From a virus, in the IMG/VR virus record IMGVR_UViG_3300037510_000655: 64,000 nt of DNA; one strand, written 5' to 3'. A model generated the notes under the pieces. That model worked only from the letters and a program-made list of their open reading frames with translations. It did not search any database and had not been told where the DNA came from. Within the stretch, counting starts at the first letter, position 1, and every line of letters starts with the position of its first letter. The translations under genes were made by a program, and so were the position numbers. This document shows positions 5,501 to 56,036 of this stretch, in pieces.

Positions 5501-5885
5501 GGTGCAATTCTTGGAGGTGGTGAAGTCGACGCAGCAGAATTGGGTGGAGCCGGGCACAGCGCGCCCCGAGTCGAGCCCAGGCTACGTGCACAACGTGTCG
5601 AACACGGTGCAGGTGGAGCCGCATGAGTGGGGCGAGGTCGCCGAGTACCTGTGGCAGAACAAGGAGCACTTCTCGGGGGTCAGTTTCATCGAGAACAACA
5701 ACAAGATCTACCCGTTCATGCCGTTCCAGGAGGTCATCACGGAAGCTGACGAGGCTCACTTCAACCAGTTGGTTGCAAACTATAAGCCGGTTGATTATCT
5801 CTCTTTCGTGGAAGAGGATGACACCACCAGTTTCGTGCAGGAGCCAGCATGTGCTGGCGGGGCCTGCGAGATTCCTACCAGGTAA
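2592..5885 (+). CDS. nrdJ: Class II (B12-dependent) ribonucleotide reductase with N-terminal ATP-cone, interrupted by an intein
   Basis: ATP-cone IRKRDGSKQMFTRDKI; LPSMRSM, YNC, GCGVGYSV, GGIRRSS, NP|CAEI split by the intein, TTVKPGGTTS, C-terminal CAGGACEI. Confidence 0.9.
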   Translation: MHTDPVSQSQMIEIRKRDGSKQMFTRDKIANAVAAAWKSVGGFDEDKTKIIAMSVASDAFGAAEAGVIDIEEVQNLVEIALMRNKLYDVAKAYVIYRQSRAVARGARKHPDPRAVADYIHAAKYARYLPDKKRREVYEETVARTEQMHIRRFGHLPSLAGGDSFAHDIRRAFDLVREERVLPSMRSMQFGGAAIEAVENRIYNCSATHVNRLEAFSQAFYLLLCGCGVGYSVQFRHVDQLPEFGFVDPKRVVHHVVGDSIEGWADAALALLRSFVDGTHIEFAYHLVRSEGSPLKTSGGKAPGHLALKTALESVRTILLQAQGRRLRPIECHEIMCLLADAVLSGGIRRSSLISLFSLEDSEMMYCKTGNWLDKKPWLSNANNSCVLKRSEVRLEQFMRIFKMTKRFGEPGFIFVNDEEEVTNPCQPRWATVLTPEGIKTIGEIEIGSTIWSGKQWTKVTNKWSTGVKPVYAFRTRAGTFYGTENHRVVSEGEKIEVGQAESIDTAQGPVGAHEDLDPRVIMDGIVFGDGSVHEASNNLVHLYIGAKDGDYLDSEISHLLKMQRPRLSEHAWEIRTSLTAAELPKTYLRSVPHRFRFGSSAHVRAFLRGLYTANGSIVSTRVTLKAASIQVIRQVQEMLSSLGISSYYTTNAAHTVQFDNGEYECRESYDLNITGGRREFQRQIGFIQKDKQRRLSEICEIPARESRAKKTFEIIEQTFISEEEVFDLTVEADEHTYWTGGLLVSNCAEIRMNCRLQITHEVLRLLKERTKRGKPMPDVKLGEVYTGFSFCNLCEINASKISSFSDFVEAAHAAALIGTLQASYTNMPYLGWVSEVIAEREALLGVGMTGMMDSPDYALNPEHQREIAGRIVEWNAEYAELIGIRPAARTTTVKPGGTTSLKLGVVPSGIHPQHARRFLRLVTANELETVFQNFKSVNPHMCVRKPDGDWVIEFPVQARDGAKVKRDFTAVQFLEVVKSTQQNWVEPGTARPESSPGYVHNVSNTVQVEPHEWGEVAEYLWQNKEHFSGVSFIENNNKIYPFMPFQEVITEADEAHFNQLVANYKPVDYLSFVEEDDTTSFVQEPACAGGACEIPTR
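3864..4829 (+). mobile_element. Intein with LAGLIDADG homing endonuclease (~322 aa) inserted at the RNR active-site NP|C
   Basis: Starts with Cys (CQPRWATVLTPEG), ends VSN followed by extein Cys; LAGLIDADG-like motifs DGIVFGDGS and FLRGLYTANGS; DNA visibly less GC-rich than the flanks. Confidence 0.9.
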
Positions 5886-25525: not shown

Positions 25526-27829
25526 TTACGGGCTGGGAATGGACAGCTGCGACCACAGGGCGGTCGTGCCCGTCTTGGTCACGCCCATCCAGATGGTGTT
25601 GTCGTCGGTCTTGATGACCAGCTCGCCGACGTAGTAGGGCTTGGCGGCGGTCAGGGTCGCGAAGGTAGAGAACCGCCGCTTCATGTCGTAGATGTCGACG
25701 GTGGGGTTGTTCGAGCCGTAGTTGTCGTTGTTCGGCCCCCACTGGTACCAGGCCGCCTCGGCGAAGAAGTTGTCGTCGGTGGTGGTGATGTTGCCAGCGC
25801 CCGCCGGGAACGTGCGCGACAGGCTCGATCCCTGCACGCGGTACTTGGCGTAGACCGCGTTCATCTTGAACGTCGGGTTGCCTGCCGGCGTGAAGCCCGC
25901 CACGTTGAATAGTTCGTCGGTGATGCCGACGGCGTCGATGTCGAACTCAACCACGTCAGCGTTCGCCGTCCAGTTGGTGGCGTCGATCAACCAGCACCGG
26001 TGGCAGTTGCTGAGATAGCCCGTCATCCTGAGCTTGGAGAAGCCGCCCGTCGCACCTGCAGCTGTTGGTCCTGATACGCGCCACGGAGAAAAACCGTTCG
26101 CGCAGTTGGCGAAGTTGAAGTCGAGAATTGAGCCGGCACCAGAGCGCATGCGCACACCGTTGTAGTTGAAGGCGCTGCCGGAGTTCGTGCAGTCGAAGTC
26201 GAGGCGCGAGAACGTGGCGGTGATCACGAACGCGGACATGTTGGTCGCGAAATCGATGATGGCGTGATCATCGGTGCCCGCCCTCGTCGTCGAAACGTTG
26301 CGCACCTTGATGTTGTCCCAGACCCATTCGGAGGGGGTGCTGGTGTCGGGGTTACTGAACCTGGCGACCGAGATCACGAGATCGCAGTTGGTTCCGTTTT
26401 CTAGGGTGATGTCGCGCAAGGTCACGTTGCGCGGCGGCAAATTGTTGAAGTTGACGTCGTTCTGAATGAGGATGAACGGCGCTGAGTCGACCCCCTCGAT
26501 ATAGAGCTGACTGACATCGCACTCGGAGTAGATGCGCGCCCCGCGAAAATAATTCTGCTGCGCGACGCGGCCGGGTGAGGCGGTGTCGCCGCACACGTAG
26601 CGCTCGCCGATGCAGGTCGACTTGAACGTGCCGCCGTAGGTGATGGGCACGCCGCCCCCTGATCCCGACCCGTCGCCGTTGAACGTCTGCAACACCATGC
26701 CGTCGGGCACCTGGTAGCCCGCGGCGCTGTTGTTGGTCCGCTGGATGCCGACGTTGCCGATGCGCTCGTACCAGCCGCCCTCGCACCAGAAGTGCGCGCA
26801 GTGGAACGAGGCGGCCGGCGAGCGCGAGTAGCCGACGTTGAGCGAGTAGCAGTTGATCATCTTGCCCGGGAAGCACATGCGCTGGAAGAAACCCTCGACC
26901 TGACACTCCTCCGCCGAGCAGTTGACGAAGCTGACGTCGTAGTTCGGCAGGTTGTTGCCGTCGGTGGACGCGATCCACGGCATCTCGAGCTGCGCGGCGG
27001 TGAACGTGCCGAGCGCCTCGCGGAACTGGATGCCGGACCGGTCGCCGTCGTTGCCGTTGGCACCCACCGCCGGGTACGCCGCCGACACGCCGTCCCGGTA
27101 GTGCCTGGTGCCGTTGGCCAACCACGTGGTGCAGTTCTCGCCGCTGATGCCGTTGACGGTATTGTCGTGGGTGTAGACGTTGAACACCTCGGCGCGCTGC
27201 ACCTGCGCGAACACGATTCCGTTGAGGTAGCCGTTCTTGACCTCGATGTCGCCGGCGATGACGACGTCGCTGCACGGGGTCAAGTTATCTGTGCCGGCCA
27301 CGAACTCGAGGCAGCCGTTGAAGCGACGGCCCGCTGATGTAACTGCGTTGGTACCGCGACCGAAGTTCGGCTGCGTCGCCGGGTAGGTTTGGTTGTCGCG
27401 GTTGCCGTCGACGGTGAGCCTGCCGCAGAGGTAGAAGCCCTGCACACCACGCGTCTGCATGAAGGGCACGAAATTGTCGTGGCTGGCGTCGGTGTTGACG
27501 ATGGCGCCGTTGGCGATGCGCCACGTCGTGTTGTAGCAGACTATGTAGTGGCAGAGCGTGTTGATGATCGGCGCCGAGATCTCGTAGGTGCGGTCGGGGA
27601 AGGCCAGCGGCAGTCCTGAGTCGACGGCCAGCTGAATGGTGCCCTGGTCGGTCACACCGGCGGGCCGGAACCACTCGACGTTGGTCGGGACCACGGAGCC
27701 GCCCGGCGCCAGGTGGTCGAGGATGTACTTGTCCAGGGCCGACATCATGCCGTCGGCGTCCTCGGTCGCTGCGTGGAAGATGTGGCTCCCGATGGCGAAC
27801 GTCGGGATCTTGTACCTGGTGTCGGCCAC
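25526..27829 (-). CDS. Right-handed beta-helix depolymerase / receptor-binding spike
   Basis: IQLAVDSG..FPDRTYEIS, LTVDGNRDNQ, repeated N/G/I-rich coils typical of the pectate-lyase-like fold. Confidence 0.75.
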   Translation of the reverse strand: MADTRYKIPTFAIGSHIFHAATEDADGMMSALDKYILDHLAPGGSVVPTNVEWFRPAGVTDQGTIQLAVDSGLPLAFPDRTYEISAPIINTLCHYIVCYNTTWRIANGAIVNTDASHDNFVPFMQTRGVQGFYLCGRLTVDGNRDNQTYPATQPNFGRGTNAVTSAGRRFNGCLEFVAGTDNLTPCSDVVIAGDIEVKNGYLNGIVFAQVQRAEVFNVYTHDNTVNGISGENCTTWLANGTRHYRDGVSAAYPAVGANGNDGDRSGIQFREALGTFTAAQLEMPWIASTDGNNLPNYDVSFVNCSAEECQVEGFFQRMCFPGKMINCYSLNVGYSRSPAASFHCAHFWCEGGWYERIGNVGIQRTNNSAAGYQVPDGMVLQTFNGDGSGSGGGVPITYGGTFKSTCIGERYVCGDTASPGRVAQQNYFRGARIYSECDVSQLYIEGVDSAPFILIQNDVNFNNLPPRNVTLRDITLENGTNCDLVISVARFSNPDTSTPSEWVWDNIKVRNVSTTRAGTDDHAIIDFATNMSAFVITATFSRLDFDCTNSGSAFNYNGVRMRSGAGSILDFNFANCANGFSPWRVSGPTAAGATGGFSKLRMTGYLSNCHRCWLIDATNWTANADVVEFDIDAVGITDELFNVAGFTPAGNPTFKMNAVYAKYRVQGSSLSRTFPAGAGNITTTDDNFFAEAAWYQWGPNNDNYGSNNPTVDIYDMKRRFSTFATLTAAKPYYVGELVIKTDDNTIWMGVTKTGTTALWSQLSIPSP

Positions 27830-32726: not shown

Positions 32727-32972
32727 CTATACCTTTCGCTTCGTCTTCGGAGGTTGAGGCTGCCCAGGATAGTGCGAGCGGATGACGATCTCAGAGCGGC
32801 TGGTGGCTTTGACCGCGTCCTCGCTCTTGGCCGGGTCTTCCTGCTCGCCGAGGCAGTCGACCACCGTCACGTTCTTGAAGCCGCACCGTTTGAGCGTGCG
32901 CACGAGCAGGTGGATGAGCGTGGTCTTGCCGGCGCCGGGGTGGCCGGACACCGTGACGGTGAGCTTGCTCAT
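32727..32972 (-). CDS. Small P-loop-containing protein
   Basis: VTVSGHPGAGKTT Walker A; only 81 aa. Confidence 0.5.
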   Translation of the reverse strand: MSKLTVTVSGHPGAGKTTLIHLLVRTLKRCGFKNVTVVDCLGEQEDPAKSEDAVKATSRSEIVIRSHYPGQPQPPKTKRKV

Positions 32973-33415
32973 TTGTCGAGCGCGATCTCACCCTCGACGG
33001 TGATCGAGACCTCGCAGTCGCGCATGAACTTGAGGTCGATCTCGAAGGGATCACCGATGCGCAGCGTGTCGAGAAGCAGCTCGTTGTAGCGCGCGGTCGG
33101 ACCGAACACGACTGACGGAATGCCGTCGGGGTTGGGTGGGAACTGATTCTTACCGTTGACGCGGGCCGCCATGACACACGTGCCAATGCCTTCGCTGATC
33201 TCCTCGATGATGAGCTTCGTGCCGCGGAACAGGTGCGCGCACTTCTGCGAGAGCGTGACGAGGTCGCCGGCCTTGCCGCTGTGCTTGAATTCGAGCTTGT
33301 GGGGTTGCTTCATCGGCATGGCCTTCTTGATCTCGTCAAATTTCGCGTAATTTTCGAGATCCTCGCGCGAGAGGAATTCTTCGTGTGGAGGCGACGGAAT
33401 GTCCTTTTTCGTCAT
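32969..33415 (-). CDS. Hypothetical protein
   Basis: GGAG RBS; coupled stop/start. Confidence 0.5.
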   Translation of the reverse strand: MTKKDIPSPPHEEFLSREDLENYAKFDEIKKAMPMKQPHKLEFKHSGKAGDLVTLSQKCAHLFRGTKLIIEEISEGIGTCVMAARVNGKNQFPPNPDGIPSVVFGPTARYNELLLDTLRIGDPFEIDLKFMRDCEVSITVEGEIALDK

Positions 33416-33416
33416 T

Positions 33417-33689
33417 TCACTTCTCCTCGTGTTTACGTAAATGCTCGAGCAATTTCGGGATAGCCTCTTCATCCGTCATGTACGGACGCTTCACACGCTT
33501 GCCTTCGATTACGTGCAACATCTCCATTGGAGACAACCCTCCGCGCTCGTTGAGGCGCTCGAGACTCTGGTCGTGGTTGATCAGCGCCTGCTCTTCGTGA
33601 GGCGCCACAAAAGACCAGGGCACAGTACACGGGCAACCGAGTGCTTCTCGAACCGCCTTCTCAGCTCGCGAGAGCTGGCCCCAATGCAC
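33417..33689 (-). CDS. Small phage-type hypothetical protein
   Basis: VPWSFVAPHEEQALINHDQSLERLNERGGLS, a pattern I recall from phage hypothetical proteins. Confidence 0.5.
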   Translation of the reverse strand: MHWGQLSRAEKAVREALGCPCTVPWSFVAPHEEQALINHDQSLERLNERGGLSPMEMLHVIEGKRVKRPYMTDEEAIPKLLEHLRKHEEK

Positions 33690-33703: not shown

Positions 33704-35293
33704 TCACTTCTCCTCTTTCTTCTCCGACCGGGGCCAGTAGAAGTAGTAGTACAAGGGCTTCTCCCCCGCCGAGACCTCGGTCTTGAGCAGCGGCAGGAGC
33801 CGGCGCGAGTAGTCGTGGTCCTCGCCGTAGGACGTCCTCGGGAACCCGGCCTGCAGCGCCAGCTCGCGCTTGACCGGGCTCAGGTGCGTCGGCGTGCGGA
33901 AGTGCACCCCATCTTTGGAGTGCCACTCCTTGTACTTCATCGAGTTGTGGAAGGGCTCGGGCGCGGCGCCGGCCGTGGTCATGACGCCGCTGATGGCGAC
34001 GGTGTCGGGCGCGCTCGACGACAGCGCATCCACGATGCTCTCGATGTAGTCGTGCGCCACCCAGTCGTCGTCGTCAACGAAGCAGACGTAGTTGCCCCTG
34101 GCGTGCTCCAGCAGCCGCTGGCGCTTCTCCCCAATGGAGGCCGAGGGCTGCATATCGAAGATCACTTCGACCAGCGAAGATCCGGCCCCGCTGTATTTCT
34201 TTGTCTGGTGCTCCAGCTCGTCAACGAGCTTGTCGAGCATGGCCGAGCGCTCGGGCATCGAGCAGATGAGGACGCTCAGAAAGGGAGGAGAAAACAGCGA
34301 AAAATCACCCTGCTTGCGCTTCTCGTAAACAGCCTTGTCCTCATCCCACAGCGCGTCGTTGCGCTTGTAGGTGGCGTCGACGTTGCTCTTGCCCGTCACG
34401 TGGTGGCGATGCTCGATCAGCATCTGGTCGATGTACGCGAGCCTGTTCATTGCCCGCAGCACCTCCGTCTGCTCCTGGTCGCACCACAGCGACTTGTACG
34501 CCGGATGGTAGACGTAGCCAAAGAGGTCGTAGAGCTTGCGCCCCATGATCGGCAGCGTGACGATGTTGTCGTGCTGGTAGCCATCGTCGAAGTAGATGGC
34601 GCCGTCGAGCTGCGGCCAACGCTTCAACATCTCGTCGCGGATGGTGACCGCGTACATCTCGCCCACCGGCACCATGTCGTCGGACGCGAGCACCAGGATG
34701 TCCCAGTTGTCGACCCGGCCACCGTTGACCGCCGCGACCTTGCTCTTGTGGGCGCCAACGGTGATGACGCAGTCAAGCGCGCGCAGCCTCTGCAGCACCT
34801 CGGCCCGCATCATGGTCTCGTCGTCCTCGTCAATCACGACCTCGATGGTGATCGGCATGCCGGCCATGCCACGGTAGCGCGCCAGCACGTCGAGCGCCTG
34901 GCGCGGCCGCCCTCGCGTTGGCATACGCACGAGCACGTGCGGCTGGCCCGCGGAGAGCATCACCGACGGCGCGAGCATCGACGTAACAGGTGGAAGTGCC
35001 GGCTTGCTCGCGGCCTTCATCCCCTGCACCGGCGGCAAGTTCATCGGCACGAACGAGATGGCGCCCCGACTCGCATCGGTCATCACGCGCCAGCCTCCGT
35101 CCTGCTCGTAGCGCCGCTGCAGGGCCGCCAGCAACTTCGGCGTCAGCTCGTCCCCGGGGAACTCGATGCGCATGGGCGTGCCGTCGAACTTGGACGCCAG
35201 CTCGTAGTCGATGCGGGCCTCGAGCTTGGCGAGCCTGGTCTTCTCCTCGGCGCTGAATGTGACGAGCGCCAGGGCATCCTGCACGGTGATCAT
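33704..35293 (-). CDS. Double-domain family 2 (GT-A) glycosyltransferase
   Basis: Domain 1: PTRGRP..DILVLASDDM; domain 2: LSVLICS..RQRLLEHARGNYVCFVDDDD..GEDHDY. Confidence 0.8.
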   Translation of the reverse strand: MITVQDALALVTFSAEEKTRLAKLEARIDYELASKFDGTPMRIEFPGDELTPKLLAALQRRYEQDGGWRVMTDASRGAISFVPMNLPPVQGMKAASKPALPPVTSMLAPSVMLSAGQPHVLVRMPTRGRPRQALDVLARYRGMAGMPITIEVVIDEDDETMMRAEVLQRLRALDCVITVGAHKSKVAAVNGGRVDNWDILVLASDDMVPVGEMYAVTIRDEMLKRWPQLDGAIYFDDGYQHDNIVTLPIMGRKLYDLFGYVYHPAYKSLWCDQEQTEVLRAMNRLAYIDQMLIEHRHHVTGKSNVDATYKRNDALWDEDKAVYEKRKQGDFSLFSPPFLSVLICSMPERSAMLDKLVDELEHQTKKYSGAGSSLVEVIFDMQPSASIGEKRQRLLEHARGNYVCFVDDDDWVAHDYIESIVDALSSSAPDTVAISGVMTTAGAAPEPFHNSMKYKEWHSKDGVHFRTPTHLSPVKRELALQAGFPRTSYGEDHDYSRRLLPLLKTEVSAGEKPLYYYFYWPRSEKKEEK

Positions 35294-35321
35294 GAGAGAG
35301 GTCCCCCTAGTTGGGTAGAAG

Positions 35322-35669
35322 CTACGACTGCGCCTTCGGTCCCGGAACCGGCGTGAAAGCTTGCGGCGACTCTTCTCCGTACGCGGCTTCAATGGCCGCG
35401 TAGGTGTCACGCGTCTGGCGCTCCCGGTGCATCATCATGGCGCCGGCCATCTTCCAGGCCGCCCGTGCCACGTCGTCGAACGGGATGCTGAGCGGCTCGC
35501 CCTTCTGCATGGCCGCCATCGTCACGCCAGTCATGAGCTGCGTCATGGCGATGGTGGCGAAGCTGTCGAAGGCCCGCTGGTCGAGGCGCGACTCTTTGTT
35601 GCTCTCGAGCGCCTCGACGGACTCGACAATCTTGTTCAAGAACTCCTGGACGTGCTCGTCGCTCACCAT
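35322..35669 (-). CDS. Hypothetical protein
   Basis: Coupled ORF; DDVARAAWKMAGAMM motif seen in small phage proteins. Confidence 0.5.
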   Translation of the reverse strand: MVSDEHVQEFLNKIVESVEALESNKESRLDQRAFDSFATIAMTQLMTGVTMAAMQKGEPLSIPFDDVARAAWKMAGAMMMHRERQTRDTYAAIEAAYGEESPQAFTPVPGPKAQS

Positions 35670-36604
35670 AGCTTCTCCGTCTCCTCCAGCGCGCGCCGGA
35701 CTTCGTCGACCTGTTGAAGCGCCCCGAACTCGGCGTGCCCTTTGATCTCGTAGTACCGACGCTTGTCGCTGTTCTTCACCATGTCCGCACACACGTCACC
35801 AAGCTTCGCGTAAGGAACACGCACCATGGTCTTGGCCGCGAAATTCTCCAGCTCGCTGTCACAACCCCCGTCCTCCGTCACCACGCATTTGCTGTTCGCC
35901 AACGCATGCGAAGTGCGGAAGATCTCGTGGATGGGGTTGTCGTAGAAGTGCGCGTTGAGGATGACCTTCGATCGTAGCATCCAGTCGTCACGCTCCTGGC
36001 CGTAGACGCCGAACAGCGTCTTCAGCTTGAGGCCGCGGGCTGCGAGATCGATGAACAGCATTGCTCGGCGAGCGTTGACCGAGCCGATGAAGAGCACGTC
36101 GACATCCTGCTCGACGGGCAGGACTTCGCTTCCTCCACAGACTGAACACCTTCCCACATATCCGCCCATCTGATCAGCGAAGTGCTGTGCGCCATGGCAC
36201 GGCGGCAATCTCACTCGCAGACCCGGCCACCAGCCGACCCGACAGTGCACCAACTTCTCGACGCCGTACCTCCGCAGTCGCTCGATGTTGGTCGTGCTGT
36301 AGTCCCACACGACGCGCTTGCGCATGACGTCGAGGTACTTTTGCCAGCCCGGCGACAGCTGCGTCAGAGGGGCCGTCGGCACCTGCTCGGCGTTGTAAAT
36401 GATCGCGCCGTCGAGCTGCACCTCGGTCACGTGCGGCGGAAGGGTGCCGTCGAAGCGGTGGATATTGAAGACGACGAGTCGATCGCGATGATGAGCTGCA
36501 CCGAGCTGCAGAAACGACCACTCGATGCCGTTGGCGACCTCCGACAGCGCCCTCCAGTGCTCTCCTGGCGCATTCGGCCGGACGATGTGCACCCGTCCAC
36601 CCAC
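35663..36604 (-). CDS. GT-B glycosyltransferase (Glyco_trans_1_2/CgeB-like)
   Basis: DVLFIGSVNARR, GVYG-x-ERD, SKVILNAHFY, EIFR, CVVTE. Confidence 0.75.
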   Translation of the reverse strand: MGGRVHIVRPNAPGEHWRALSEVANGIEWSFLQLGAAHHRDRLVVFNIHRFDGTLPPHVTEVQLDGAIIYNAEQVPTAPLTQLSPGWQKYLDVMRKRVVWDYSTTNIERLRRYGVEKLVHCRVGWWPGLRVRLPPCHGAQHFADQMGGYVGRCSVCGGSEVLPVEQDVDVLFIGSVNARRAMLFIDLAARGLKLKTLFGVYGQERDDWMLRSKVILNAHFYDNPIHEIFRTSHALANSKCVVTEDGGCDSELENFAAKTMVRVPYAKLGDVCADMVKNSDKRRYYEIKGHAEFGALQQVDEVRRALEETEKLW

Positions 36605-36605
36605 G

Positions 36606-37829
36606 CTACGCTCCCCTCTGCGCCGGCTCCTGGTCGACGACGATGTTCTTGAACGCCTCCCAGCCTCCGCCCGCCTTCATGCCCTCGCTGACGTGCTCGC
36701 GCATCAGCTCGATGTACGTGCGCTCGGGGTTGTCGCCGAGCTTGACCTTGACCTCGGGGTGCTTGCGCGCCAGCTGCTTGGCCACGGCCGCCGCCAGGTG
36801 GTGCGCCTTCCACGCGATGTCGACGGGCACCGGCAGCGAATTGTCGATGCCCGAGGCCGCCTCCGCCACCTTGGCCGCATGCGCCGCCAGCTCGTACACC
36901 TTGACCGCCGGCAGCACCTGCATCGCGAAGCGAGCGACGAAGAGCGCGACCTCGGGCCTGGTCGGGTCGTCCGCCGCCAGCTCCTGCGCGCGCCGGAGCA
37001 GCTCCGCCGGCGTATACACCGCCGTCTCGCGCGCCACGTCGATGTACTGCAGCCGGATGTAGTTGCGCTCGATCTCGTGGCCGGTCGGGATGGCGAGCCT
37101 GCGCAGGTACAGGCCCATCAGCTCGAACGCGTAGCGCATCCGCTCGCGCTCCTCGAAAAACGGGAAGAGAGACTTGTAGCTCTGCGCCAGGAAAGTGAGC
37201 GCGCGCTCGTCCTCGGGGTGCTCCTCCAGGTGCTCGCGCAGGAGCGGGATGTGGCGCTCCCAGATGTTGTTGAAGCGCACCTCGGGATCGGCGACGACGT
37301 GCTCGATGTACGCCCCGGGCACGCCGATGGTCTTGGCGCCGGGCTCGTCGCGATTGACGACGACCTCGTGCAGACCCATCGGCAGCGAGCTGTCGTACTT
37401 CCACTTGCTACCGGTGCGCAGCACGCGCGCCTGGTAGCTGCGGTCGCCCTCGAGCAGGAGCTGCATCCAGTGGCAGTCGACGTCGCTGTCGCGGTGCTGC
37501 TCGAGGTGCTCGCGGAGCTTCTCGCCGTCGCGCAGGTACTCGTCGCCGGAGAGCATGAGTTGGAAGACAGCGTCGTGCGTGACCGCGTCAACACCGAGGG
37601 CGAAATTCCTCGCCTCGTCGTAGCGAAACTCCAGCATCGGCTGCACGACGAGTCGCTTACTGCTCACCCCACCGAACATCTCGCGCACGATGCTCTGCGT
37701 GTCGTCGGTCGAGCCTGTGTCGACAATCGTCGCTCGGTCGACGTGTGGGAGCGCCGCCTCGAGCACGGCCTTGATGTTGGACGCCTCGTTCTTGACGATC
37801 ATCACGAGACTGAGCAAGGGGCGCGTCAT
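36606..37829 (-). CDS. Family 2 glycosyltransferase with a TPR-like C-terminus
   Basis: LSLVMIVKNEA, IVDTGSTDDT, SGDEYL, LHEV, YL-x-QSY helical repeats. Confidence 0.85.
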   Translation of the reverse strand: MTRPLLSLVMIVKNEASNIKAVLEAALPHVDRATIVDTGSTDDTQSIVREMFGGVSSKRLVVQPMLEFRYDEARNFALGVDAVTHDAVFQLMLSGDEYLRDGEKLREHLEQHRDSDVDCHWMQLLLEGDRSYQARVLRTGSKWKYDSSLPMGLHEVVVNRDEPGAKTIGVPGAYIEHVVADPEVRFNNIWERHIPLLREHLEEHPEDERALTFLAQSYKSLFPFFEERERMRYAFELMGLYLRRLAIPTGHEIERNYIRLQYIDVARETAVYTPAELLRRAQELAADDPTRPEVALFVARFAMQVLPAVKVYELAAHAAKVAEAASGIDNSLPVPVDIAWKAHHLAAAVAKQLARKHPEVKVKLGDNPERTYIELMREHVSEGMKAGGGWEAFKNIVVDQEPAQRGA

Positions 37830-47948: not shown

Positions 47949-48301
47949 TTCTTGTGGTGCCTCCCGACGACGAAGTGGTAGATGAGCGCGAAGAAACCGA
48001 TGACACCACCGATCGCCACCGCACCCACCACCGCGTCGTGAGCGAGGTGGCTGTTCGTCGGCGACTTGAAGTTCTTCGGTTCGACGACGCTAACATCCGC
48101 GTCGACGTTGTTCGCTTTCAGGCTCTCGACGAGCTTGGCTTTCATCTCGTCGTAGACCTTGGCCTCGACGGTGCCGGGCACGAGAGCGGCAGCCAAGGTA
48201 CCGAGAGCACCCTGCGAGCGCGCCAGCTCCGCTGCGTTGCGCACACGGATGAGGATGGCGCGATTGGTGGCCTGGTCAGCTCCAAACACAGTACGCCGCA
48301 T
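47945..48301 (-). CDS. Small tail-anchored membrane protein
   Basis: TVFG at the N-terminus; C-terminal TM plus RHHKK. Confidence 0.65.
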   Translation of the reverse strand: MRRTVFGADQATNRAILIRVRNAAELARSQGALGTLAAALVPGTVEAKVYDEMKAKLVESLKANNVDADVSVVEPKNFKSPTNSHLAHDAVVGAVAIGGVIGFFALIYHFVVGRHHKK

Positions 48302-49329
48302 CAGATCCCCAGCTCGTAGATGATACGCCCGCCGAGATTGGCCGACGGAATGATGAAGAGCGACACCGCATCCGTCGTCAACGGAAACGGCGCAGTCATT
48401 GGCGCAGCCGCGGTGAAGGTTGTCGTGTACAGCGAGTTCGTGTTGCTGGCGAGCACCGCGACTTCAACCGTGGCCGGCGGCGGATCGTTCACCAAAAACC
48501 GAAAATTCTTGGCAAACGCCGGGATGGCATAGGTGGTAGATACGGTAGAATCCAACACCTGCGTGCAGGTGACCGGTGCCGTACGCACGCACGGATAGAA
48601 CGAGAGCATGGCGCCGAGCTTCATCGTCATGGTGCCAGTAACACCTAGCACACGACGCACACCGACCTGTGCGGTGACATAGCTCGCGTTCACTGTGAGC
48701 TGCATGCCCTTGCCGATATCGATTTCGGCCTGGGCGAGCGCCGCCCGCGTGCCCCACTTCAAAATCATATATGGCGACGCAGCTCCGTTGCCGAACGTTG
48801 CCGCATTTGCGATTTGCTCGACAGGGAACCCGGTAACCGTGACCGGCAACGTCTCCTCGTCCTCGCCGCCCCAGTTCACCGTCTGAATCGGAGCGACGTC
48901 AGTCGAGTTGACGATCTGGTACCCGCCGAGAACACCCTGCATGACCGATGGCGGGTTGATGCGCGCGAACTTTGCAACGTCCGCGAGCCCCTTCCAACCG
49001 TGGTTGCGCAGCTCGACCTTCTGCACGAGCCCGTCGGCGTTGTTGAACTTCTGCGCGATGAAGTCGGCCTGCTCCAGCTTGTCACCCTGAAACACCCGCT
49101 CCTCGCCCTCGATGGCCTCGGCCTCCTGCTCGGCGCCGCGAACGATTTCTTCAGCAGCTTCATCGGTGGCGCGATCGAGCGCCGCGGCCTGCATCAGACG
49201 CTTCTGCTGAATACCGATCGCGCGCAACTTCCGCAGCTCGGCGATGGCCAGCTTGTCGCCCTTGGCGGCGCGCTCCTTCAGCTTCTGCACGAAGGCCAGA
49301 GGACCCGTCTTGGCGCTCACTTGAACCAC
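48301..49329 (-). CDS. Protein with a C-terminal all-beta region (candidate penton / minor jelly-roll capsid protein)
   Basis: Helical N-terminus ending GVLG, then ~200 aa of alternating beta strands (GMQLTVNASYV, YAIPAFAKNF, RIIYELGI). Confidence 0.5.
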   Translation of the reverse strand: MVQVSAKTGPLAFVQKLKERAAKGDKLAIAELRKLRAIGIQQKRLMQAAALDRATDEAAEEIVRGAEQEAEAIEGEERVFQGDKLEQADFIAQKFNNADGLVQKVELRNHGWKGLADVAKFARINPPSVMQGVLGGYQIVNSTDVAPIQTVNWGGEDEETLPVTVTGFPVEQIANAATFGNGAASPYMILKWGTRAALAQAEIDIGKGMQLTVNASYVTAQVGVRRVLGVTGTMTMKLGAMLSFYPCVRTAPVTCTQVLDSTVSTTYAIPAFAKNFRFLVNDPPPATVEVAVLASNTNSLYTTTFTAAAPMTAPFPLTTDAVSLFIIPSANLGGRIIYELGI

Positions 49330-50306: not shown

Positions 50307-50917
50307 CAGAACACCTCGTTGACGCGCTCGACCAGCTCGACCGTGCCGGGGAAGCGCTCGCCGTTTGCCCAAATCTCCGCACCCTTCGGACCGCAGCGGT
50401 GGAGCACCGCCAGCATACCCGACAGCGTCAGTTCCTCGGGAGGATCGATCTCACCCGTCTCGATGCGGCGCACGTAGTCGCGCATCGACTGGCAGAACAC
50501 TTGGTACTGCGCCCGCACGCTGCGCAAGAATGCGCGCGGCGTGAGCGGCTCGACGAACTTGCCCACCCAAATCGTGCGTCGCTTGCCGCTCGGCGCCTCA
50601 CGGTAGGCCCGCTGGAGCGTGCTGGCGTCGACGTATCCGAAGTCCGCCAGCCGGCGCGGCGACAGCTCGAACATGCCGAGCGCATTGGAGTCGGACACGG
50701 AGTCGAGCGGCGCCGTCATCATGCGGCGCACGAAATCGGTCCACTTGTCGTCGCTGACGCCCTCGACCTCGCTCACGAGCAGCACCTCGTCGGAGAGATC
50801 GTCGCCGCGGGCCACGTCGGACTCGGCGTAGCCGATGACGTCGCTCTTGACCTCCTCGAGCCGCTCTCGTGCGGCGAGCGCGTCGAGAGCGCGCAGGTAC
50901 TTGTCCGAGACCTTCAA
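50306..50917 (-). CDS. Lysozyme-like fold protein (candidate virion muralytic enzyme)
   Basis: SNALGMF..RLADFG..FL-x-S..Q..F..LTLSGMLAVLHRCGPKG..W resembles lysozyme-like phage domains; YLRALDALA and DVIG in the leader. Confidence 0.55.
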   Translation of the reverse strand: MKVSDKYLRALDALAARERLEEVKSDVIGYAESDVARGDDLSDEVLLVSEVEGVSDDKWTDFVRRMMTAPLDSVSDSNALGMFELSPRRLADFGYVDASTLQRAYREAPSGKRRTIWVGKFVEPLTPRAFLRSVRAQYQVFCQSMRDYVRRIETGEIDPPEELTLSGMLAVLHRCGPKGAEIWANGERFPGTVELVERVNEVF

Positions 50918-51693
50918 CCGAGCCTCCGCATCTGCTTCTTCAGCTCGCGCTCGAACTTGCGCTGCGTACCTCGCGTCGGGATCTGACTGCCGAGCACCGT
51001 CGTGAAGCTCGGAAGACCGTGAACCTTGGTGGCGCGGCGCTCGCGGTTGCGGCGAGTGATCGCGCCGAAGACGTCAGTGGAGGCAGTGAGCCCGCCACCG
51101 AGCACCTTCAGGAACTCGGCGCAGCGCTCCCCGAGCTTGCGCTCCTCCTCGCGGCGGTCTGCGGCGCGCGCTTCGCCACCCATACCGAGCAGTAGCGACG
51201 GATCCTCGGAGCTACCATCGGGCCACAGCACGATGACGTGGTAGGTATAGCCGCCGTCGGGGCGCTGCCTCCACGTGATGTACGGCTTGGCGTCGATGCC
51301 TAACTCGCGCAGCTCCGCGGCGCGCCAGCTGGCAACGTTGTCGCAGTCGCCGCCACCATTCTCGATGATGCGCGGGATCTCCCGGAAGTGCTCGCCACCG
51401 CCGCACATGTCCGAGAGCGCCTTGAAGGCGCGCATGACATCGTCTCCGGCGCCCTTGCTCTTGAGGAACTTGCCGACGGTGTCGATCTCCGGCAACTTCT
51501 CCTTCTCGAACTGCGCCGGCACCTTGTACTTGATGCCCGACTTGTAGATGAGCGGTGTATCGGGATGCTGCTGCAGGTAGAGACGATTGCACCAAACGAG
51601 CGCTTCGAGAAGGCAGAGCACGCGCTTCTGCGAATTGGCGCGGTCAGCCTCGTCGGCGAAGAACTCAACGTCGAAGAGGATGTGTCGGAGCAA
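50914..51693 (-). CDS. Transglutaminase-like (papain-fold) cysteine protease, candidate maturation protease
   Basis: GDCDNVA..AAEL (Cys), YHVIV (His), EDPS (Asp) in the canonical order; C-terminal tail carries KVLG, DVFG, TKVHG and TVLG. Confidence 0.7.
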   Translation of the reverse strand: MLRHILFDVEFFADEADRANSQKRVLCLLEALVWCNRLYLQQHPDTPLIYKSGIKYKVPAQFEKEKLPEIDTVGKFLKSKGAGDDVMRAFKALSDMCGGGEHFREIPRIIENGGGDCDNVASWRAAELRELGIDAKPYITWRQRPDGGYTYHVIVLWPDGSSEDPSLLLGMGGEARAADRREEERKLGERCAEFLKVLGGGLTASTDVFGAITRRNRERRATKVHGLPSFTTVLGSQIPTRGTQRKFERELKKQMRRLG

Positions 51694-51788
51694 CGCTACT
51701 CTCCTTTGTAGAAAAGCCGCGCTCCTCGTTTAACAAGCGAAGAGCGCGGCTTCCCGGACTACCTAACTACTACCGCGTCCGTCCCTAA

Positions 51789-52361
51789 TTACAGGACGGT
51801 GTGGCCGATGATCGAGGCCGACCAGGTCAGCGTCGCCGACGTGGTATTCTGAATCTGCCACGTGATGAACAGTGCGGGATCACACGTATCGAGCATCAGC
51901 TCGTTGTCCAGCACGGTGCCGGCGAAGACCGCCATCGCGATCGGGTTCTGGAAGGTCGGCAGCTGCGACTTCTGCCCGACGAACAGACCCTGGATGAAGA
52001 GGCCGGTCACGTCGCCCGAGTTGACCAGCTTCTCGCCGCGGAAGAGGCACTGCGGCTGAGCCTGCACGGTCACGGTCGACAGCGGCGGAATGGCGGTGGG
52101 GCCGAAGCCCACGACCCACCGGCGCTTCTTGGTCGGCTGGACCTTCTGCACGACGGGCGCGCGACGGGCCAGCTTGTTGGCGAGGGCGGCCTGGAACGTC
52201 GGGCTGCCCTTGATCCGGCTCGAGGCGAGCGCGGCGGCGCCCAGGATCTCCTCGTGCCCCAGGATCTCCTCGTGACCGAGATACTCGGCCATCAGCTCCT
52301 GGTCGCGCGACTGGCCCTGAAGGCCGTGAATGAAGATATCGTCGTCATCACCGTAGCTCAT
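51789..52361 (-). CDS. Candidate single jelly-roll major capsid protein with an acidic propeptide
   Basis: C-terminal ~110 aa splits into 8 alternating beta strands; N-terminal acidic leader with EYLG-HEEILG-HEEILG, then a basic amphipathic helix. Confidence 0.6.
   Translation of the reverse strand: MSYGDDDDIFIHGLQGQSRDQELMAEYLGHEEILGHEEILGAAALASSRIKGSPTFQAALANKLARRAPVVQKVQPTKKRRWVVGFGPTAIPPLSTVTVQAQPQCLFRGEKLVNSGDVTGLFIQGLFVGQKSQLPTFQNPIAMAVFAGTVLDNELMLDTCDPALFITWQIQNTTSATLTWSASIIGHTVL
52241..52274. repeat. In-frame 18-bp-period tandem duplication encoding HEEILG twice
   Basis: CCAGGATCTCCTCGTG at 52241 and 52259. Confidence 0.85.
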
Positions 52362-52423
52362 GTTGCTTTCTCCGTTTCGCGCCTACCCGCAGGTGACGCT
52401 TCGTTTTTGGTTTTCCCCGTCGA

Positions 52424-52912
52424 TCAACCGGCGTTGGCGAGTCGATCGAGCTGCGCGGCCGAGAGGAAGTCCCCGTGGGGGGCCTTCGGAATCTCGCCGA
52501 GGATCGTCGACCCCGGAACCGCCGCCTTGACCTTCGGGATGTCGCCCTTCTTGACCATGACGCGGGCAACGCCGCTGTGCTGCGACCCGCGGCCCGCGCC
52601 GAGGGTGTGGCAGAACGCACCGATGCCGGCCAGGCCGACCATCTTGGTGGCGTGCGACAGACCACCGACGACGCCGCCGACCCCGTACCAGTCCCCGAGA
52701 AACGACAGAGCGGTGAAGCCAATGCCCGCCGCCAGGTCCGCCGGCACGCCCTTGATGTGGGCCTTCTCGCGGTAGCGATTCATCAGGTACCCGTACCCGA
52801 AGGAAGCGCCGCCGAACACAGCCGCATCGACAGCCGTGCGCGAGAGAGCGTGCGTGAACGAACCCTTTCGCCCGAGGGAAAGCTTGTCCAAGTAATTCGC
52901 CATCTCGAACAT
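52424..52912 (-). CDS. Gly-rich multi-TM membrane protein, first gene of the structural operon
   Basis: GGAG RBS; hydrophobic helices; AVFG, HIKG and TILG. Confidence 0.6.
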   Translation of the reverse strand: MFEMANYLDKLSLGRKGSFTHALSRTAVDAAVFGGASFGYGYLMNRYREKAHIKGVPADLAAGIGFTALSFLGDWYGVGGVVGGLSHATKMVGLAGIGAFCHTLGAGRGSQHSGVARVMVKKGDIPKVKAAVPGSTILGEIPKAPHGDFLSAAQLDRLANAG

Positions 52913-54403: not shown

Positions 54404-54889
54404 ATGGCTCGTCGCGGAAGCAAGAAGGGTCACAAGAAGGGGCACAAGAAGGGCTACAGCAAGAAGCGCCGTGCCGCCGCCGCCCGCAAGGCGTGGCGCA
54501 AGCGCAAGGCGAAGTACGGCAAGGCCGGTCGCAAGCGCGGTCGTCGCGGTGGCAAGAAGAAGGGCACCAAGAAGGGTGGGCGCCGCGGCAGCAAGAAGAA
54601 GGGCGGCAAGAAGAGCAGTCATCGCCGAGGTGGGCACCACAAGTCGCACGCTCACAAGGCGCGCAAGGGCCGCCGAGGCGCTCGTCGCCGCAGTGCGCGG
54701 CGTGAGATGATGGGTGGCTTCCGCGTCTCGCGCGGCTACGCCAAGCAACTCGCGAGGAAGCGCCGGGGCTTCGCCGCCCGCGCCGCGCGCGACGCCGCTC
54801 TCTCCGAGCACCGCAGCGCGTACCGCAACGAGCTGCTCGCGCGTCTCGCCGCCAGAAAAGAAGCCGCCGACGCCGCGAGGTTCTCGTAA
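54404..54889 (+). CDS. Protamine/histone-H1-like K/R-rich DNA-condensing protein
   Basis: Strong RBS; roughly half of the residues are K/R; repeats KKGHKKGHKKG and KKGG. Confidence 0.7.
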   Translation: MARRGSKKGHKKGHKKGYSKKRRAAAARKAWRKRKAKYGKAGRKRGRRGGKKKGTKKGGRRGSKKKGGKKSSHRRGGHHKSHAHKARKGRRGARRRSARREMMGGFRVSRGYAKQLARKRRGFAARAARDAALSEHRSAYRNELLARLAARKEAADAARFS

Positions 54890-55130: not shown

Positions 55131-56036
55131 CTAGATCAGCCTCAACAGCTTCGACTTCGTCACGGGCTTGAGGCCCTTCTCCGTCATTTCGTAGTACGCC
55201 TTGAGCCCGGACGGGCCGAGACGATTCTTCTCGTGACATTCGAGGACGCGCACCGGCTCGCCCTCTTTCGGATCACCCTCATCGTTATACTCGTAGTGCC
55301 GGTCAAGACGAAGGAGCGTATCGACGTAATGCTGCAACGTCTCGGTGCCGGCGAACTCACCCTGCTTCTCGAGGTGGGTGATGATGATCGCCGCCATCTC
55401 GTTCTCTTTGCAGTAGCTGTTGATCATGTTGGCCACGGCGTTGATCTGCGCAGGTGAGCCTTCGTTACCCTTGGAGTCATCGACGGTCATGGCCTGGATC
55501 GAATCGAAGACACAAAGCGCCGCCTTCAACTCCTTGCAGCGCTGAAGCACGGTGTCGATGTTGTTGGCCTCCTGGTTCTCGTTGCCCATGATCTCGATCT
55601 TGTCGTTGGTGACGCCGATACGGCGAATGTTACGACCAACGTTCTGTGCCGTCTCCTCGCCACTGGCATAGAGCACTCGACGCCCAGTGTTCTTGCTAAC
55701 GCCGTCGCACACCTCAATAAGCAACGTGGTCTTGCCGACGCCGCGTGAGCCGCCGATGAGCGTGGCACAGCCTAGTTCGAGCCCGCCATTCATCACGCGA
55801 TCGAAATCTGGCAAACCCGTCTTGACCACGGTGCCTCCGGCTTCCTTAGCCAATTCGGCAGCCGTCCAACGCTTCTGCTTGTCTTTGGTGACCACCGCAC
55901 CGATACGACGCACGTCGTAGTAGCAGGCGCAGCCGGGGCAGCGCTTCCCTCGCCACGAGATCTCCGACTCGTAGTCGCACGCCTTGTTGCCACTGTCATC
56001 CAGGACCCACTGACCCCCGCATTTGAAAACGGCCAT
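55131..56036 (-). CDS. radA: RadA/Sms-like ATPase lacking the C-terminal Lon-like domain
   Basis: N-terminal Cys finger (CPGC), GGSRGVGKTT, YASGEE, FDSIQ, KNRLG (KNRFG motif). Confidence 0.8.
   Translation of the reverse strand: MAVFKCGGQWVLDDSGNKACDYESEISWRGKRCPGCACYYDVRRIGAVVTKDKQKRWTAAELAKEAGGTVVKTGLPDFDRVMNGGLELGCATLIGGSRGVGKTTLLIEVCDGVSKNTGRRVLYASGEETAQNVGRNIRRIGVTNDKIEIMGNENQEANNIDTVLQRCKELKAALCVFDSIQAMTVDDSKGNEGSPAQINAVANMINSYCKENEMAAIIITHLEKQGEFAGTETLQHYVDTLLRLDRHYEYNDEGDPKEGEPVRVLECHEKNRLGPSGLKAYYEMTEKGLKPVTKSKLLRLI

What the first reader, a model, noticed from the sequence alone, without database searches (positions are those of the whole stretch)
51789..52361. Single jelly-roll capsid candidate with a duplicated cleavage-like propeptide
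Seen: an acidic leader, then EYLG-HEEILG-HEEILG (an 18-bp in-frame duplication of exactly the shared motif), a basic amphipathic helix, and about 110 aa that divide into eight beta strands. The strand layout parallels one jelly-roll half of the PM2-type capsid protein (similarity of pattern only; no alignment was run). Inference: the major capsid protein is made as a precursor, and the exposed basic helix then anchors it to the membrane or DNA.
Basis: partly seen in the sequence, partly recalled or inferred. Interest (0 to 1): 0.75.

Follow-up and report, generated by a model that had tools for sequence, protein, structure and literature searches.

The report
Jelly-roll virion protein with cleavable leader
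This gene encodes the most conserved structural protein of an uncultured group of large viruses linked to soil myxobacteria: a small jelly-roll protein, probably a main shell component, that appears to be made with an acidic leader which a neighbouring viral protease cuts off.

Summary
The 190-aa ORF lies on the minus strand at 51789-52361. It has an acidic leader (net -10), the run EYLG-HEEILG-HEEILG, a basic helical segment (net +10) and a confidently modelled eight-stranded jelly-roll (residues 78-190).

The 18-bp repeat is not a recent duplication. A tandem [DE]x[IL][LV]G motif ending in an invariant Gly runs through the family, down to relatives about 30% identical in Myxococcales genome bins.

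The family is large (1,595 cluster representatives) and matches no Pfam or PHROG family and no cultured phage. Its gene travels with a small membrane protein upstream and a transglutaminase-like Cys-His-Asp enzyme downstream. A protein with two jelly-rolls follows further down.

The motif is about 24-fold enriched in the structural block. The protein is the best conserved in that block. Its gene is followed by a strong intrinsic terminator in the window and in most relatives.

Best reading (about 0.5): an abundant shell protein made as a precursor and trimmed by the neighbouring protease. A vertex (penton) role, or an accessory head role in a tailed phage, is not excluded. No oligomer could be modelled and no cleavage is shown. 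Earlier notes on this same window had already flagged the shared motif; no related finding on other DNA turned up.

The parts
51789..52361 (-). ORF of the 190-aa precursor (P0001), stop codon included
   Evidence: 82 close homologues; 1,595 cluster representatives at E<=1e-3
52370..52373 (-). Shine-Dalgarno GGAG, 8 nt before the ATG
   Evidence: read from the sequence
52239..52361 (-). acidic leader, residues 1-41, net charge -10, modelled as disordered
52239..52286 (-). EYLG-HEEILG-HEEILG. The two 18-nt units are 52257-52274 and 52239-52256 (17/18 identical). G41 is invariant and is the proposed P1 residue of the cut.
52116..52238 (-). basic segment, residues 42-82, net +10, with predicted amphipathic helices and the conserved PTKKRRW
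51792..52130 (-). jelly-roll domain, residues 78-190, pLDDT mostly above 90
51705..51755 (-). GC-rich hairpin followed by a U run just after the stop codon (intrinsic terminator or attenuator). The same feature, with a different sequence, follows the orthologues.
52424..52912 (-). upstream partner gene: 162-aa glycine-zipper membrane protein, always next to the jelly-roll gene
50914..51693 (-). downstream 259-aa transglutaminase-like enzyme with invariant Cys117, His152 and Asp164; the proposed leader protease
48301..49329 (-). 342-aa protein of the same operon: N-terminal helices followed by two tandem jelly-rolls (132-246 and 247-342). The start is probably the GTG at 49320.
32969..33472 (-). 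167-aa paralogue of the jelly-roll domain, without the leader motif

Best explanation
The gene encodes the precursor of an abundant jelly-roll virion protein, most likely a main building block of the capsid shell. The virus belongs to an uncultured group of large dsDNA viruses (at least about 70 kb here) associated with Myxococcota.

The protein has three parts: a disordered acidic leader with two copies of the EEILG motif, a basic amphipathic helical segment, and a C-terminal eight-stranded jelly-roll.

Inferred mechanism:
1. The acidic leader (-10) neutralises the basic segment (+10) during synthesis and assembly.
2. The transglutaminase-like Cys-His-Asp enzyme encoded just downstream then cuts after the Gly of the motif. 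It would cut the other block proteins that carry the same motif in the same way.
3. The freed basic helix binds the inner membrane or the DNA beneath the shell.

Shown here: the architecture, the fold, family-wide conservation of the motif, its enrichment in the block, the gene linkage, and the terminator. Inferred: cleavage, the enzyme-substrate relation, virion location, and copy number.
For: Fold: the AF2 model has pLDDT mostly above 90 over residues 78-190. All best matches are jelly-rolls. They include P23-77 VP17 (Z 7.2-7.5), SPV1 (7.7-7.8), HCIV-1 VP4 and VP7 (8.2, 7.4) and SH1 (7.0).

Conservation: the protein is 70-79% identical to its orthologues in four related contigs. The neighbours are 65-68% (enzyme), 48-58% (lytic enzyme) and 30-40% (two-jelly-roll protein) identical.

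Abundance signals: ATG start with its own GGAG. A strong hairpin with a U run sits right after the stop in the window and in L001, L002 and L003. A terminator-like site follows 32 of 72 family ORFs, against 3 of 28 enzyme genes and 2 of 13 two-jelly-roll genes. The stems differ in sequence between relatives.

Leader: disordered, with an invariant Gly at the end of the motif. Two or more motif copies occur in 53 of 83 homologues, and repeated variants occur in relatives about 30% identical. Motif enrichment in the block is 18 observed against 0.75 expected.

Enzyme: invariant Cys-His-Asp, and an intein inserted exactly at the Cys in one relative. Weak matches to Transglut_core and Peptidase_C93. 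It lies downstream of the jelly-roll gene in 21 of 27 loci.

Paralogy: some relatives have two or three tandem paralogues, each with its own leader and basic helix, and there are fused two-domain forms. This fits hetero-oligomeric capsomers.

Known analogue: the mavirus cysteine protease cuts its major capsid protein at repeated Gly-ending sites and does not cut the penton (PMC6048507).

No terminase, portal or HK97-type capsid family was detected among the window proteins scanned, or in the precomputed Pfam hits of related loci.
Against: Structural Z scores of 7-8 are at the level the tool calls common. Cellular jelly-rolls score the same (peptidylglycine monooxygenase 8.0, GOLD domains 7.9).

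The single best match is a penton protein, HHIV-2 VP9, which has the same layout of an N-terminal helix followed by one jelly-roll.

A second protein with two jelly-rolls, weakly like the phiCjT23 and FLiP major capsid proteins, is present in all 8 related loci long enough to show it. It could be the true major capsid protein.

Paralogue number varies from 1 to about 5 per genome, which is unusual for a major capsid protein.

The window is only part of a genome, so capsid genes of another type could lie outside it. A 767-aa beta-helix protein matches a PHROG family annotated as 'tail protein', from Sinorhizobium myoviruses.

No packaging ATPase of the FtsK/HerA type was seen; the only P-loop protein in the window is RadA/KaiC-like.

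No cleavage, expression or oligomer data exist.
Confidence: 0.5

Rival explanations
1. It is the vertex (penton) protein. Five copies of the jelly-roll would plug each fivefold vertex, and the N-terminal helix would dock on a pentamer of the neighbouring membrane protein. [quoted passage not shown] The block would then be a PRD1/virophage-like module of double jelly-roll capsid protein, single jelly-roll penton and cysteine protease.
For: The best structural match is the HHIV-2 penton VP9 (Z 8.3). In HCIV-1 the corresponding protein has an N-terminal helix tilted on the membrane and engages pentamers of the membrane protein VP13. A membrane-protein gene is always adjacent. The 342-aa model aligns over both of its domains with the phiCjT23 (178 residues, Z 7.6) and FLiP (184 residues, Z 6.7) major capsid proteins. 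That family co-occurs in 8 of 8 loci. Multiple and fused jelly-roll paralogues are typical of vertex and turret complexes such as STIV A223 and C381, which are also among the matches.
Against: It would make the 60-copy protein the best conserved in the block (70-79%) and the shell protein the worst (30-40%). The terminator after this gene, but not after the 342-aa gene, predicts more of this protein, not less. The whole-span matches of the 342-aa model have high rmsd (5.5-6.8 A) and background-level Z. In mavirus the protease cuts the major capsid protein, not the penton.
Confidence: 0.2
2. The virus is a tailed phage whose HK97-type capsid, portal and terminase genes lie outside the window or are too diverged to detect. 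This protein would then be an abundant accessory head protein: a jelly-roll cement or decoration protein, or an internal DNA-binding head protein trimmed during head maturation.
For: The window is a fragment of a larger contig, and relatives sit on contigs up to 122 and 345 kb. Atlas clusters of the family are labelled mostly Uroviricota, by automatic taxonomy. The 767-aa protein matches a 'tail protein' PHROG (E 1.6e-58) from Sinorhizobium myoviruses. Jelly-roll cement proteins of tailed phages appear among the weaker structural matches. Processing of many head proteins at one short motif is known from T4 and phiKZ-like phages (established knowledge).
Against: About 70 kb of this genome (the window plus L018 and a Logan contig) and six related 20-kb loci show no terminase, portal, capsid, sheath or tube family. 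Three related contigs are all 71-72 kb long, which suggests genomes of about that size. Compact elements of about 10-17 kb in Myxococcota genomes carry the same jelly-roll, enzyme and basic-protein set with little room for a tail module. Prohead proteases of tailed phages are serine proteases, not transglutaminase-like Cys enzymes (established knowledge). A basic membrane- or DNA-binding helix and a membrane-protein partner fit an outer decoration protein poorly.
Confidence: 0.17
3. It is not a virion protein. The jelly-roll protein would be the substrate of a true transglutaminase that cross-links it into a matrix, fibre or coat, or the three genes (membrane protein, jelly-roll protein, enzyme) would serve some cellular or mobile-element function.
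For: The three-gene set also occurs on contigs binned to Myxococcales, Polyangiaceae and Gemmatimonadaceae, next to ParA-like and regulatory genes. The enzyme's fold class includes real transglutaminases. The best match of the 342-aa model is a Bacillus endospore appendage subunit (Z 9.6).
Against: In the window and its close relatives the gene heads a long one-directional block of lytic enzymes, membrane proteins and basic proteins, inside a virus-like genome that also carries ribonucleotide reductase, an integrase and a sigma factor. The conserved motif contains neither Gln nor Lys, the residues a transglutaminase joins. The leader is disordered and ends in an invariant Gly, as a cleavage site would.
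Confidence: 0.07

Closest known systems
Penton protein VP9 of HHIV-2 and HCIV-1 (Sphaerolipoviridae), PDB 6h82 and 6h9c
   Same: One jelly-roll of similar size, preceded by an N-terminal helix that faces the inner membrane. It works with a small membrane protein (VP13). It is the best structural match (Z 8.3).
   Different: No sequence similarity. The match is at background strength. VP9 has no known cleaved acidic leader. This protein looks abundant and is the best conserved in its block, which is unlike a penton.
Vertical single jelly-roll major capsid proteins: P23-77 VP16/VP17, HCIV-1/HHIV-2/SH1 VP4/VP7, SPV1 VP4/VP10
   Same: Small single jelly-roll proteins that build shells over an inner membrane. 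They are encoded as adjacent paralogues, as in the relatives L004, L017 and L003 here. Structural matches reach Z 7.0-8.2.
   Different: Those viruses have genomes of 16-31 kb, infect thermophiles or haloarchaea, and have an FtsK/HerA-type packaging ATPase, and no protease-trimmed leader is described for them. Here the genome is about 70 kb or more, no such ATPase was seen in the window, and the window has only one leader-bearing copy.
Capsid maturation by a virus-encoded cysteine protease: adenovirus adenain with precursors pVI, pVII, pVIII and pX; mavirus protease with its major capsid protein (PMC6048507)
   Same: A short motif ending in Gly recurs in several virion and core proteins. It is repeated several times in the terminal extension of the capsid protein. 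The protease gene sits in the same module, and basic core-like proteins are present.
   Different: Those proteases belong to clan CE (Ulp1-like) and cut at GG|X or GX|G. Here the enzyme is transglutaminase-like and the motif is [DE]x[IL][LV]G. The host is bacterial.
Jelly-roll cement and decoration proteins of tailed phages (Bordetella BPP-1, Helicobacter KHP40, cyanophage Pam1)
   Same: Small, abundant jelly-roll proteins encoded in the head module. They appear as weak structural matches (Z 5.9-7.2).
   Different: They bind the outside of an HK97-type shell and have no acidic leader, basic helix, membrane-protein partner or cysteine protease.

Membership tests
Eight-stranded jelly-roll beta sandwich (capsid-type fold) | About 100-120 residues forming eight strands in two four-stranded sheets | tested here: met
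   The AF2 model has pLDDT mostly above 90 over residues 78-190. Every top match is a jelly-roll, with 100-113 residues aligned at 2.4-3.3 A.
Vertical single jelly-roll major capsid proteins (P23-77 VP16/17, sphaerolipovirus VP4/VP7, SPV1) | Structural similarity standing clearly above unrelated jelly-rolls | tested here: inconclusive
   Z is 7.0-8.2, the same as for peptidylglycine monooxygenase and GOLD domains. A profile search of PDB sequences found nothing.
Vertical single jelly-roll major capsid proteins (P23-77 VP16/17, sphaerolipovirus VP4/VP7, SPV1) | Two capsid-protein paralogues encoded side by side that form the capsomers together | tested here: inconclusive
   The window has one leader-bearing copy and one distant paralogue 19 kb away. 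Relatives have 2-3 tandem copies or fused two-domain forms.
Vertical single jelly-roll major capsid proteins (P23-77 VP16/17, sphaerolipovirus VP4/VP7, SPV1) | Strands perpendicular to the shell; pseudo-hexameric capsomers | not testable with these tools
Vertical single jelly-roll major capsid proteins (P23-77 VP16/17, sphaerolipovirus VP4/VP7, SPV1) | FtsK/HerA-type packaging ATPase in the same genome | tested here: inconclusive
   The only Walker A protein in the 64-kb window is RadA/KaiC-like. The genome is incomplete.
Single jelly-roll penton proteins (PRD1 P31, HHIV-2/HCIV-1 VP9, virophage penton) | One jelly-roll, often with an N-terminal helix reaching the membrane | tested here: met
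   The model has helices at 37-66 followed by the jelly-roll, and the best match is HHIV-2 VP9.
Single jelly-roll penton proteins (PRD1 P31, HHIV-2/HCIV-1 VP9, virophage penton) | Pentamer at the twelve vertices, so low copy number relative to the major capsid protein | tested here: inconclusive
   No oligomer model could be made. Indirect signals point to high abundance: a terminator after the gene, its own ribosome-binding site, and the highest conservation in the block.
Single jelly-roll penton proteins (PRD1 P31, HHIV-2/HCIV-1 VP9, virophage penton) | [quoted passage not shown] | tested here: inconclusive
   The 342-aa protein has two jelly-rolls. Its whole-span matches to the phiCjT23 and FLiP capsid proteins have Z 6.7-7.6 and rmsd 5.5-6.8 A.
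Virion precursors cut by a viral cysteine protease (adenain / virophage protease type) | One short Gly-ending motif recurring in several virion proteins, at termini or domain borders | tested here: met
   18 motif hits in 4,173 aa of block proteins against 0.75 expected (0 of 2000 shuffles), and 3 hits in 11,186 aa elsewhere. G41 is invariant.
Virion precursors cut by a viral cysteine protease (adenain / virophage protease type) | The protease belongs to clan CE (Ulp1/adenain-like) | tested here: not met
   The linked enzyme has a Cys-His-Asp signature. Its only matches, both weak, are to Transglut_core and Peptidase_C93.
Virion precursors cut by a viral cysteine protease (adenain / virophage protease type) | Cleavage at the motif demonstrated | not testable with these tools
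   This needs protein chemistry.

The most novel reading that the evidence does not exclude
The window belongs to a widespread, undescribed lineage of large (about 70 kb and more) tailless, membrane-containing viruses of Myxococcota and other soil and freshwater bacteria. Their shell would be built from this single jelly-roll protein, with paralogues and fused two-domain forms that capture steps on the path from single to double jelly-roll capsid proteins. Their particles would mature in an adenovirus-like way, with a transglutaminase-like cysteine protease cutting a common [DE]x[IL][LV]G motif in shell, membrane and basic core proteins. Compact elements of 10-17 kb in myxobacterial genomes would be small relatives.
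Probability: 0.3. Interest if true: 0.9.

Novelty: new variant of a known kind. Interest (0 to 1): 0.66.

Why it matters
Known bacterial viruses with jelly-roll shells are small (10-20 kb) and few. Those with single jelly-roll shell proteins are known only from Thermus and from archaea.

This protein marks a very large and so far unannotated family: 1,595 clusters at 50% identity, with no match in Pfam or PHROGs and none in cultured phages. It sits at the head of the structural block of viruses at least about 70 kb long that show no recognisable tailed-phage genes.

If it is a shell protein, it gives a marker for finding and classifying a hidden virus lineage in soil and groundwater metagenomes. 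It would also offer a bacterial example of protease-driven capsid maturation with a new protease type and cleavage motif. The tandem and fused copies would bear on how double jelly-roll capsid proteins arose.

Even on the more modest readings (penton or head accessory protein), the repeated leader motif and its linked enzyme are a directly testable enzyme-substrate pair.

Tried and rejected
- Pfam and PHROGs on P0001 gave no family. Pfam and PHROGs on 87 diverse family members, and Pfam on ten long members, also gave none.
- tblastn of P0001 and of the enzyme against 50,697 phage records found no match.
- A profile of the family against PDB sequences gave nothing meaningful. The same was true for the enzyme family.
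- The IMG/VR scan matched patterns 65 times, but no relative was confirmed.
- Foldseek against PDB with the P0001 model gave nothing at E<=0.001. Furin P domains and IBDV VP2 led the weak rows.
- PM2 P2 and the FLiP capsid protein were not among the 50 best rows for the P0001 model. This is an absence only.
- A profile-profile comparison of the P0001 family with the 342-aa family showed no relation. The two jelly-roll families are therefore not detectably homologous in sequence.
No capsomer model and no expression data were obtained.
- No whole genome is held. The window's own 50-200 kb contig could not be read beyond about 5 kb past the 3' end and about 1.7 kb past the 5' end. Records behind metagenome loci cannot be searched. 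The complete gene content therefore remains unknown.
- No terminal or inverted repeats were found in the window.
- Literature searches for a described group matching these features found none.
- I considered and rejected a recent slippage duplication as the origin of the 18-bp repeat.

Full report
WHAT IS THERE. The finding's coordinates hold a real gene on the minus strand (51789-52361; ATG start, GGAG 8 nt upstream; 190 aa; GC3 0.91). The product has three parts.
- Residues 1-41 are acidic (net -10) and modelled as disordered.
- Residues 42-82 are basic (net +10), with predicted helices at 37-66, the largest helical hydrophobic moment of the protein at 58-71, and the conserved PTKKRRW.
- Residues 78-190 form a beta sandwich of about eight strands with pLDDT mostly above 90.

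Residues 26-41 read EYLG-HEEILG-HEEILG. The two 18-nt units are 17/18 identical.

THE REPEAT IS OLD, NOT RECENT. Of 83 close homologues, 53 carry two or more copies of [DEQHM][DEQ][ILV][LVIF]G in the leader, at spacings of 5 to 9 residues, and 10 of those carry three. The Gly that ends the second copy is invariant in a 33-sequence alignment. Relatives only 27-31% identical, on contigs binned to Myxococcales and Polyangiaceae, start with RDMIVG-REMIVG or REMIVG-REEIVG. A still more distant one has ADLVSG-ADLIAG-...-ADLISG. Between their two copies these relatives share only 10-15 of 18 nucleotides. The near-identity in the window follows from identical residues and strong codon bias. The repeat is a selected feature of the family.

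THE FAMILY. A profile search found 1,595 cluster representatives (50% identity clusters) at E<=0.001, and 619 at E<=1e-10. None of 87 diverse members matches a PHROG or a meaningful Pfam family, and no cultured phage encodes a relative. Contigs come from soil, sediment and groundwater metagenomes. In species genomes, relatives lie in Myxococcales, Polyangiaceae and Gemmatimonadaceae bins. Many genomes hold several copies:
- three tandem genes, each with its own leader and basic helix, in L004 and L017;
- three in a row in L003;
- fused two-domain proteins (P0054, P0086, P0194);
- a leaderless 167-aa paralogue in the window at 32969-33472.

FOLD. A full search of 48,161 PDB representatives puts the following at the top:
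- the HHIV-2 penton VP9 (Z 8.3);
- the third jelly-roll of STIV C381 (8.2);
- HCIV-1 VP4 (8.2);
- SPV1 (7.7-7.8), P23-77 VP17 (7.2-7.5), HCIV-1 VP7 (7.4) and SH1 (7.0).

Cellular jelly-rolls score the same (peptidylglycine monooxygenase 8.0, GOLD domains 7.9), and the tool itself says that Z of 7-8 is common. The fold class is therefore settled as an eight-stranded jelly-roll, but kinship with capsid proteins is not shown by structure alone.

GENE NEIGHBOURHOOD. In the window and in all close relatives the order is as follows:
1. a 150-160 aa glycine-zipper membrane protein;
2. this gene;
3. a 259-aa enzyme;
4. 203-aa and 351-aa proteins;
5. a 342-aa protein;
6. several small membrane proteins;
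7. a lytic enzyme;
8. long Lys-rich or low-complexity proteins.

Across 55 metagenome loci, the enzyme gene lies within 2.5 kb downstream in 21 of the 27 with enough sequence. The 342-aa family is present in all 8 loci with 6 kb or more downstream. The set of membrane protein, jelly-roll protein and enzyme also occurs in compact elements of Myxococcota genomes. In one of these (G235:C4) it sits with a member of the 342-aa family and an AT-hook-like basic protein.

THE ENZYME. Its family has invariant GDC, YH and EDPS signatures (Cys117, His152, Asp164). Members give weak matches to Transglut_core (E 0.027) and Peptidase_C93 (E 0.015). In L003 an intein is inserted exactly at the catalytic Cys, the kind of site inteins favour in essential enzymes.

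THE MOTIF IN THE BLOCK. The motif [DE][IV][LFMI]G occurs 18 times in the 15 block proteins (4,173 aa), against 0.75 expected from shuffles (0 of 2000 shuffles reach 18). It occurs only 3 times in 41 other window proteins (11,186 aa; 2.2 expected). Hits sit near N-termini or at borders between low-complexity and globular parts.

The simplest reading is a shared cleavage or targeting signal read by the linked enzyme. This parallels adenovirus, and also mavirus, whose cysteine protease cuts the major capsid protein at repeated Gly-ending sites but not the penton. Cleavage itself is inferred, not shown.

MAJOR SHELL PROTEIN OR VERTEX PROTEIN? Three points favour an abundant protein.
- It is by far the best conserved block protein: 70-79% identity in four relatives, against 65-68% for the enzyme and 30-40% for the 342-aa protein.
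- It has an ATG start and its own ribosome-binding site, whereas the 342-aa gene starts at a GTG that overlaps the previous stop.
- A strong hairpin with a U run follows its stop codon in the window (z -3.3) and in L001, L002 and L003, with quite different stem sequences. A simple scan found such sites after 32 of 72 family ORFs, against 3 of 28 enzyme genes and 2 of 13 genes of the 342-aa family.

A terminator inside a one-directional structural block is what one expects after the gene whose product is needed in the largest amount.

Several points argue against this reading.
- The best structural match is a penton protein with the same helix-plus-jelly-roll layout, and that penton docks on a membrane-protein pentamer.
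- The 342-aa protein folds into N-terminal helices plus two tandem jelly-rolls. Weak whole-span matches link it to the small double jelly-roll capsid proteins of phiCjT23 and FLiP, and single-domain matches link it to PRD1/PR772 P31 and STIV A223.
- The two jelly-roll families show no sequence relation to each other.

Either protein could be the shell and the other the vertex. I favour the shell role for this protein on conservation and expression signals, but only moderately.

IS THE VIRUS TAILLESS? No terminase, portal, HK97-type capsid, sheath or tube family was found among about 55 window proteins scanned. None was found in the precomputed Pfam hits of six related 20-kb loci, or in about 6.6 kb beyond the window ends. 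Three related contigs are all 71-72 kb long, so the window may hold most of a genome. The only P-loop protein in the window is a RadA/KaiC-like ATPase.

On the other side, a 767-aa NosD-like beta-helix protein matches a PHROG annotated as 'tail protein' from Sinorhizobium myoviruses at 30% identity. Relatives also occur on contigs of 122 and 345 kb. The question stays open.

VERDICT. The protein is a jelly-roll protein with a leader that looks made to be cut off, and it is probably abundant. Neither its place in the particle nor the cut itself has been shown. It is a new variant of a known kind, a protease-matured jelly-roll virion protein, in an apparently undescribed virus group.

Noticed in passing
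window 48301-49329 (-): A 342-aa protein with N-terminal helices, a conserved PPSVxQGxLGG stretch and two tandem jelly-rolls. It gives weak whole-span matches to the phiCjT23 and FLiP major capsid proteins. It evolves much faster than its neighbours (30-40% identity where P0001 keeps 70-79%).
   Followed up: partly
L003 8256-9452 (+), aligned with window 50914-51693 (-): In one relative the transglutaminase-like enzyme carries an intein inserted exactly at the catalytic Cys (GGGD|C...HN|CDNVASW).
   Followed up: partly
L004 1706-3320; L017 9465-11151; L003 5573-8240; L005 10001-11289: Arrays of two or three tandem paralogues of the jelly-roll protein, each with its own leader. There are also fused two-domain forms (P0054, P0086, P0194), which look like steps from single to double jelly-roll proteins.
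   Followed up: partly
L006-L012 and L020 (G235:C4), contigs of Myxococcales, Polyangiaceae and Gemmatimonadaceae bins: Compact elements carry the set of membrane protein, jelly-roll protein and short (134-aa) enzyme, followed by a LysM protein and unknown genes. G235:C4 adds a member of the 342-aa family and a basic protein with KKRGRPAKS repeats. They may be small proviruses of the same lineage.
   Followed up: partly
window 25526-27829 (-): A 767-aa NosD-like beta-helix protein matches phrog_25268 ('tail protein', E 1.6e-58) and is 30% identical to proteins of Sinorhizobium phages phiM12, phiM7, phiM19 and phiN3. It is probably a receptor-binding or depolymerase spike.
   Followed up: partly
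window 54404-54889 (+): A 161-aa extremely basic, protamine-like protein (runs of K, R and G), encoded between the structural block and the RadA-like ATPase. It is a candidate DNA-condensing core protein.
   Followed up: no
window 55131-56036 (-): A RadA/Sms-like ATPase (zinc ribbon, Walker A, KNRxG-like motif). It is the only P-loop protein in the window, and a homologue sits next to the structural block in all larger relatives.
   Followed up: partly
window 2592-5885 (+): A 1,097-aa protein with an ATP-cone domain, probably a ribonucleotide reductase, interrupted by a LAGLIDADG homing-endonuclease or intein segment.
   Followed up: no
window 52424-52912 (-), C-terminus: The partner membrane protein ends with STILG followed by a short tail containing AAQLDRLA. 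It may be trimmed by the same enzyme.
   Followed up: no
window 33704-37829 (-): Several glycosyltransferase genes lie directly downstream of the structural block, next to the leaderless jelly-roll paralogue at 32969-33472.
   Followed up: no
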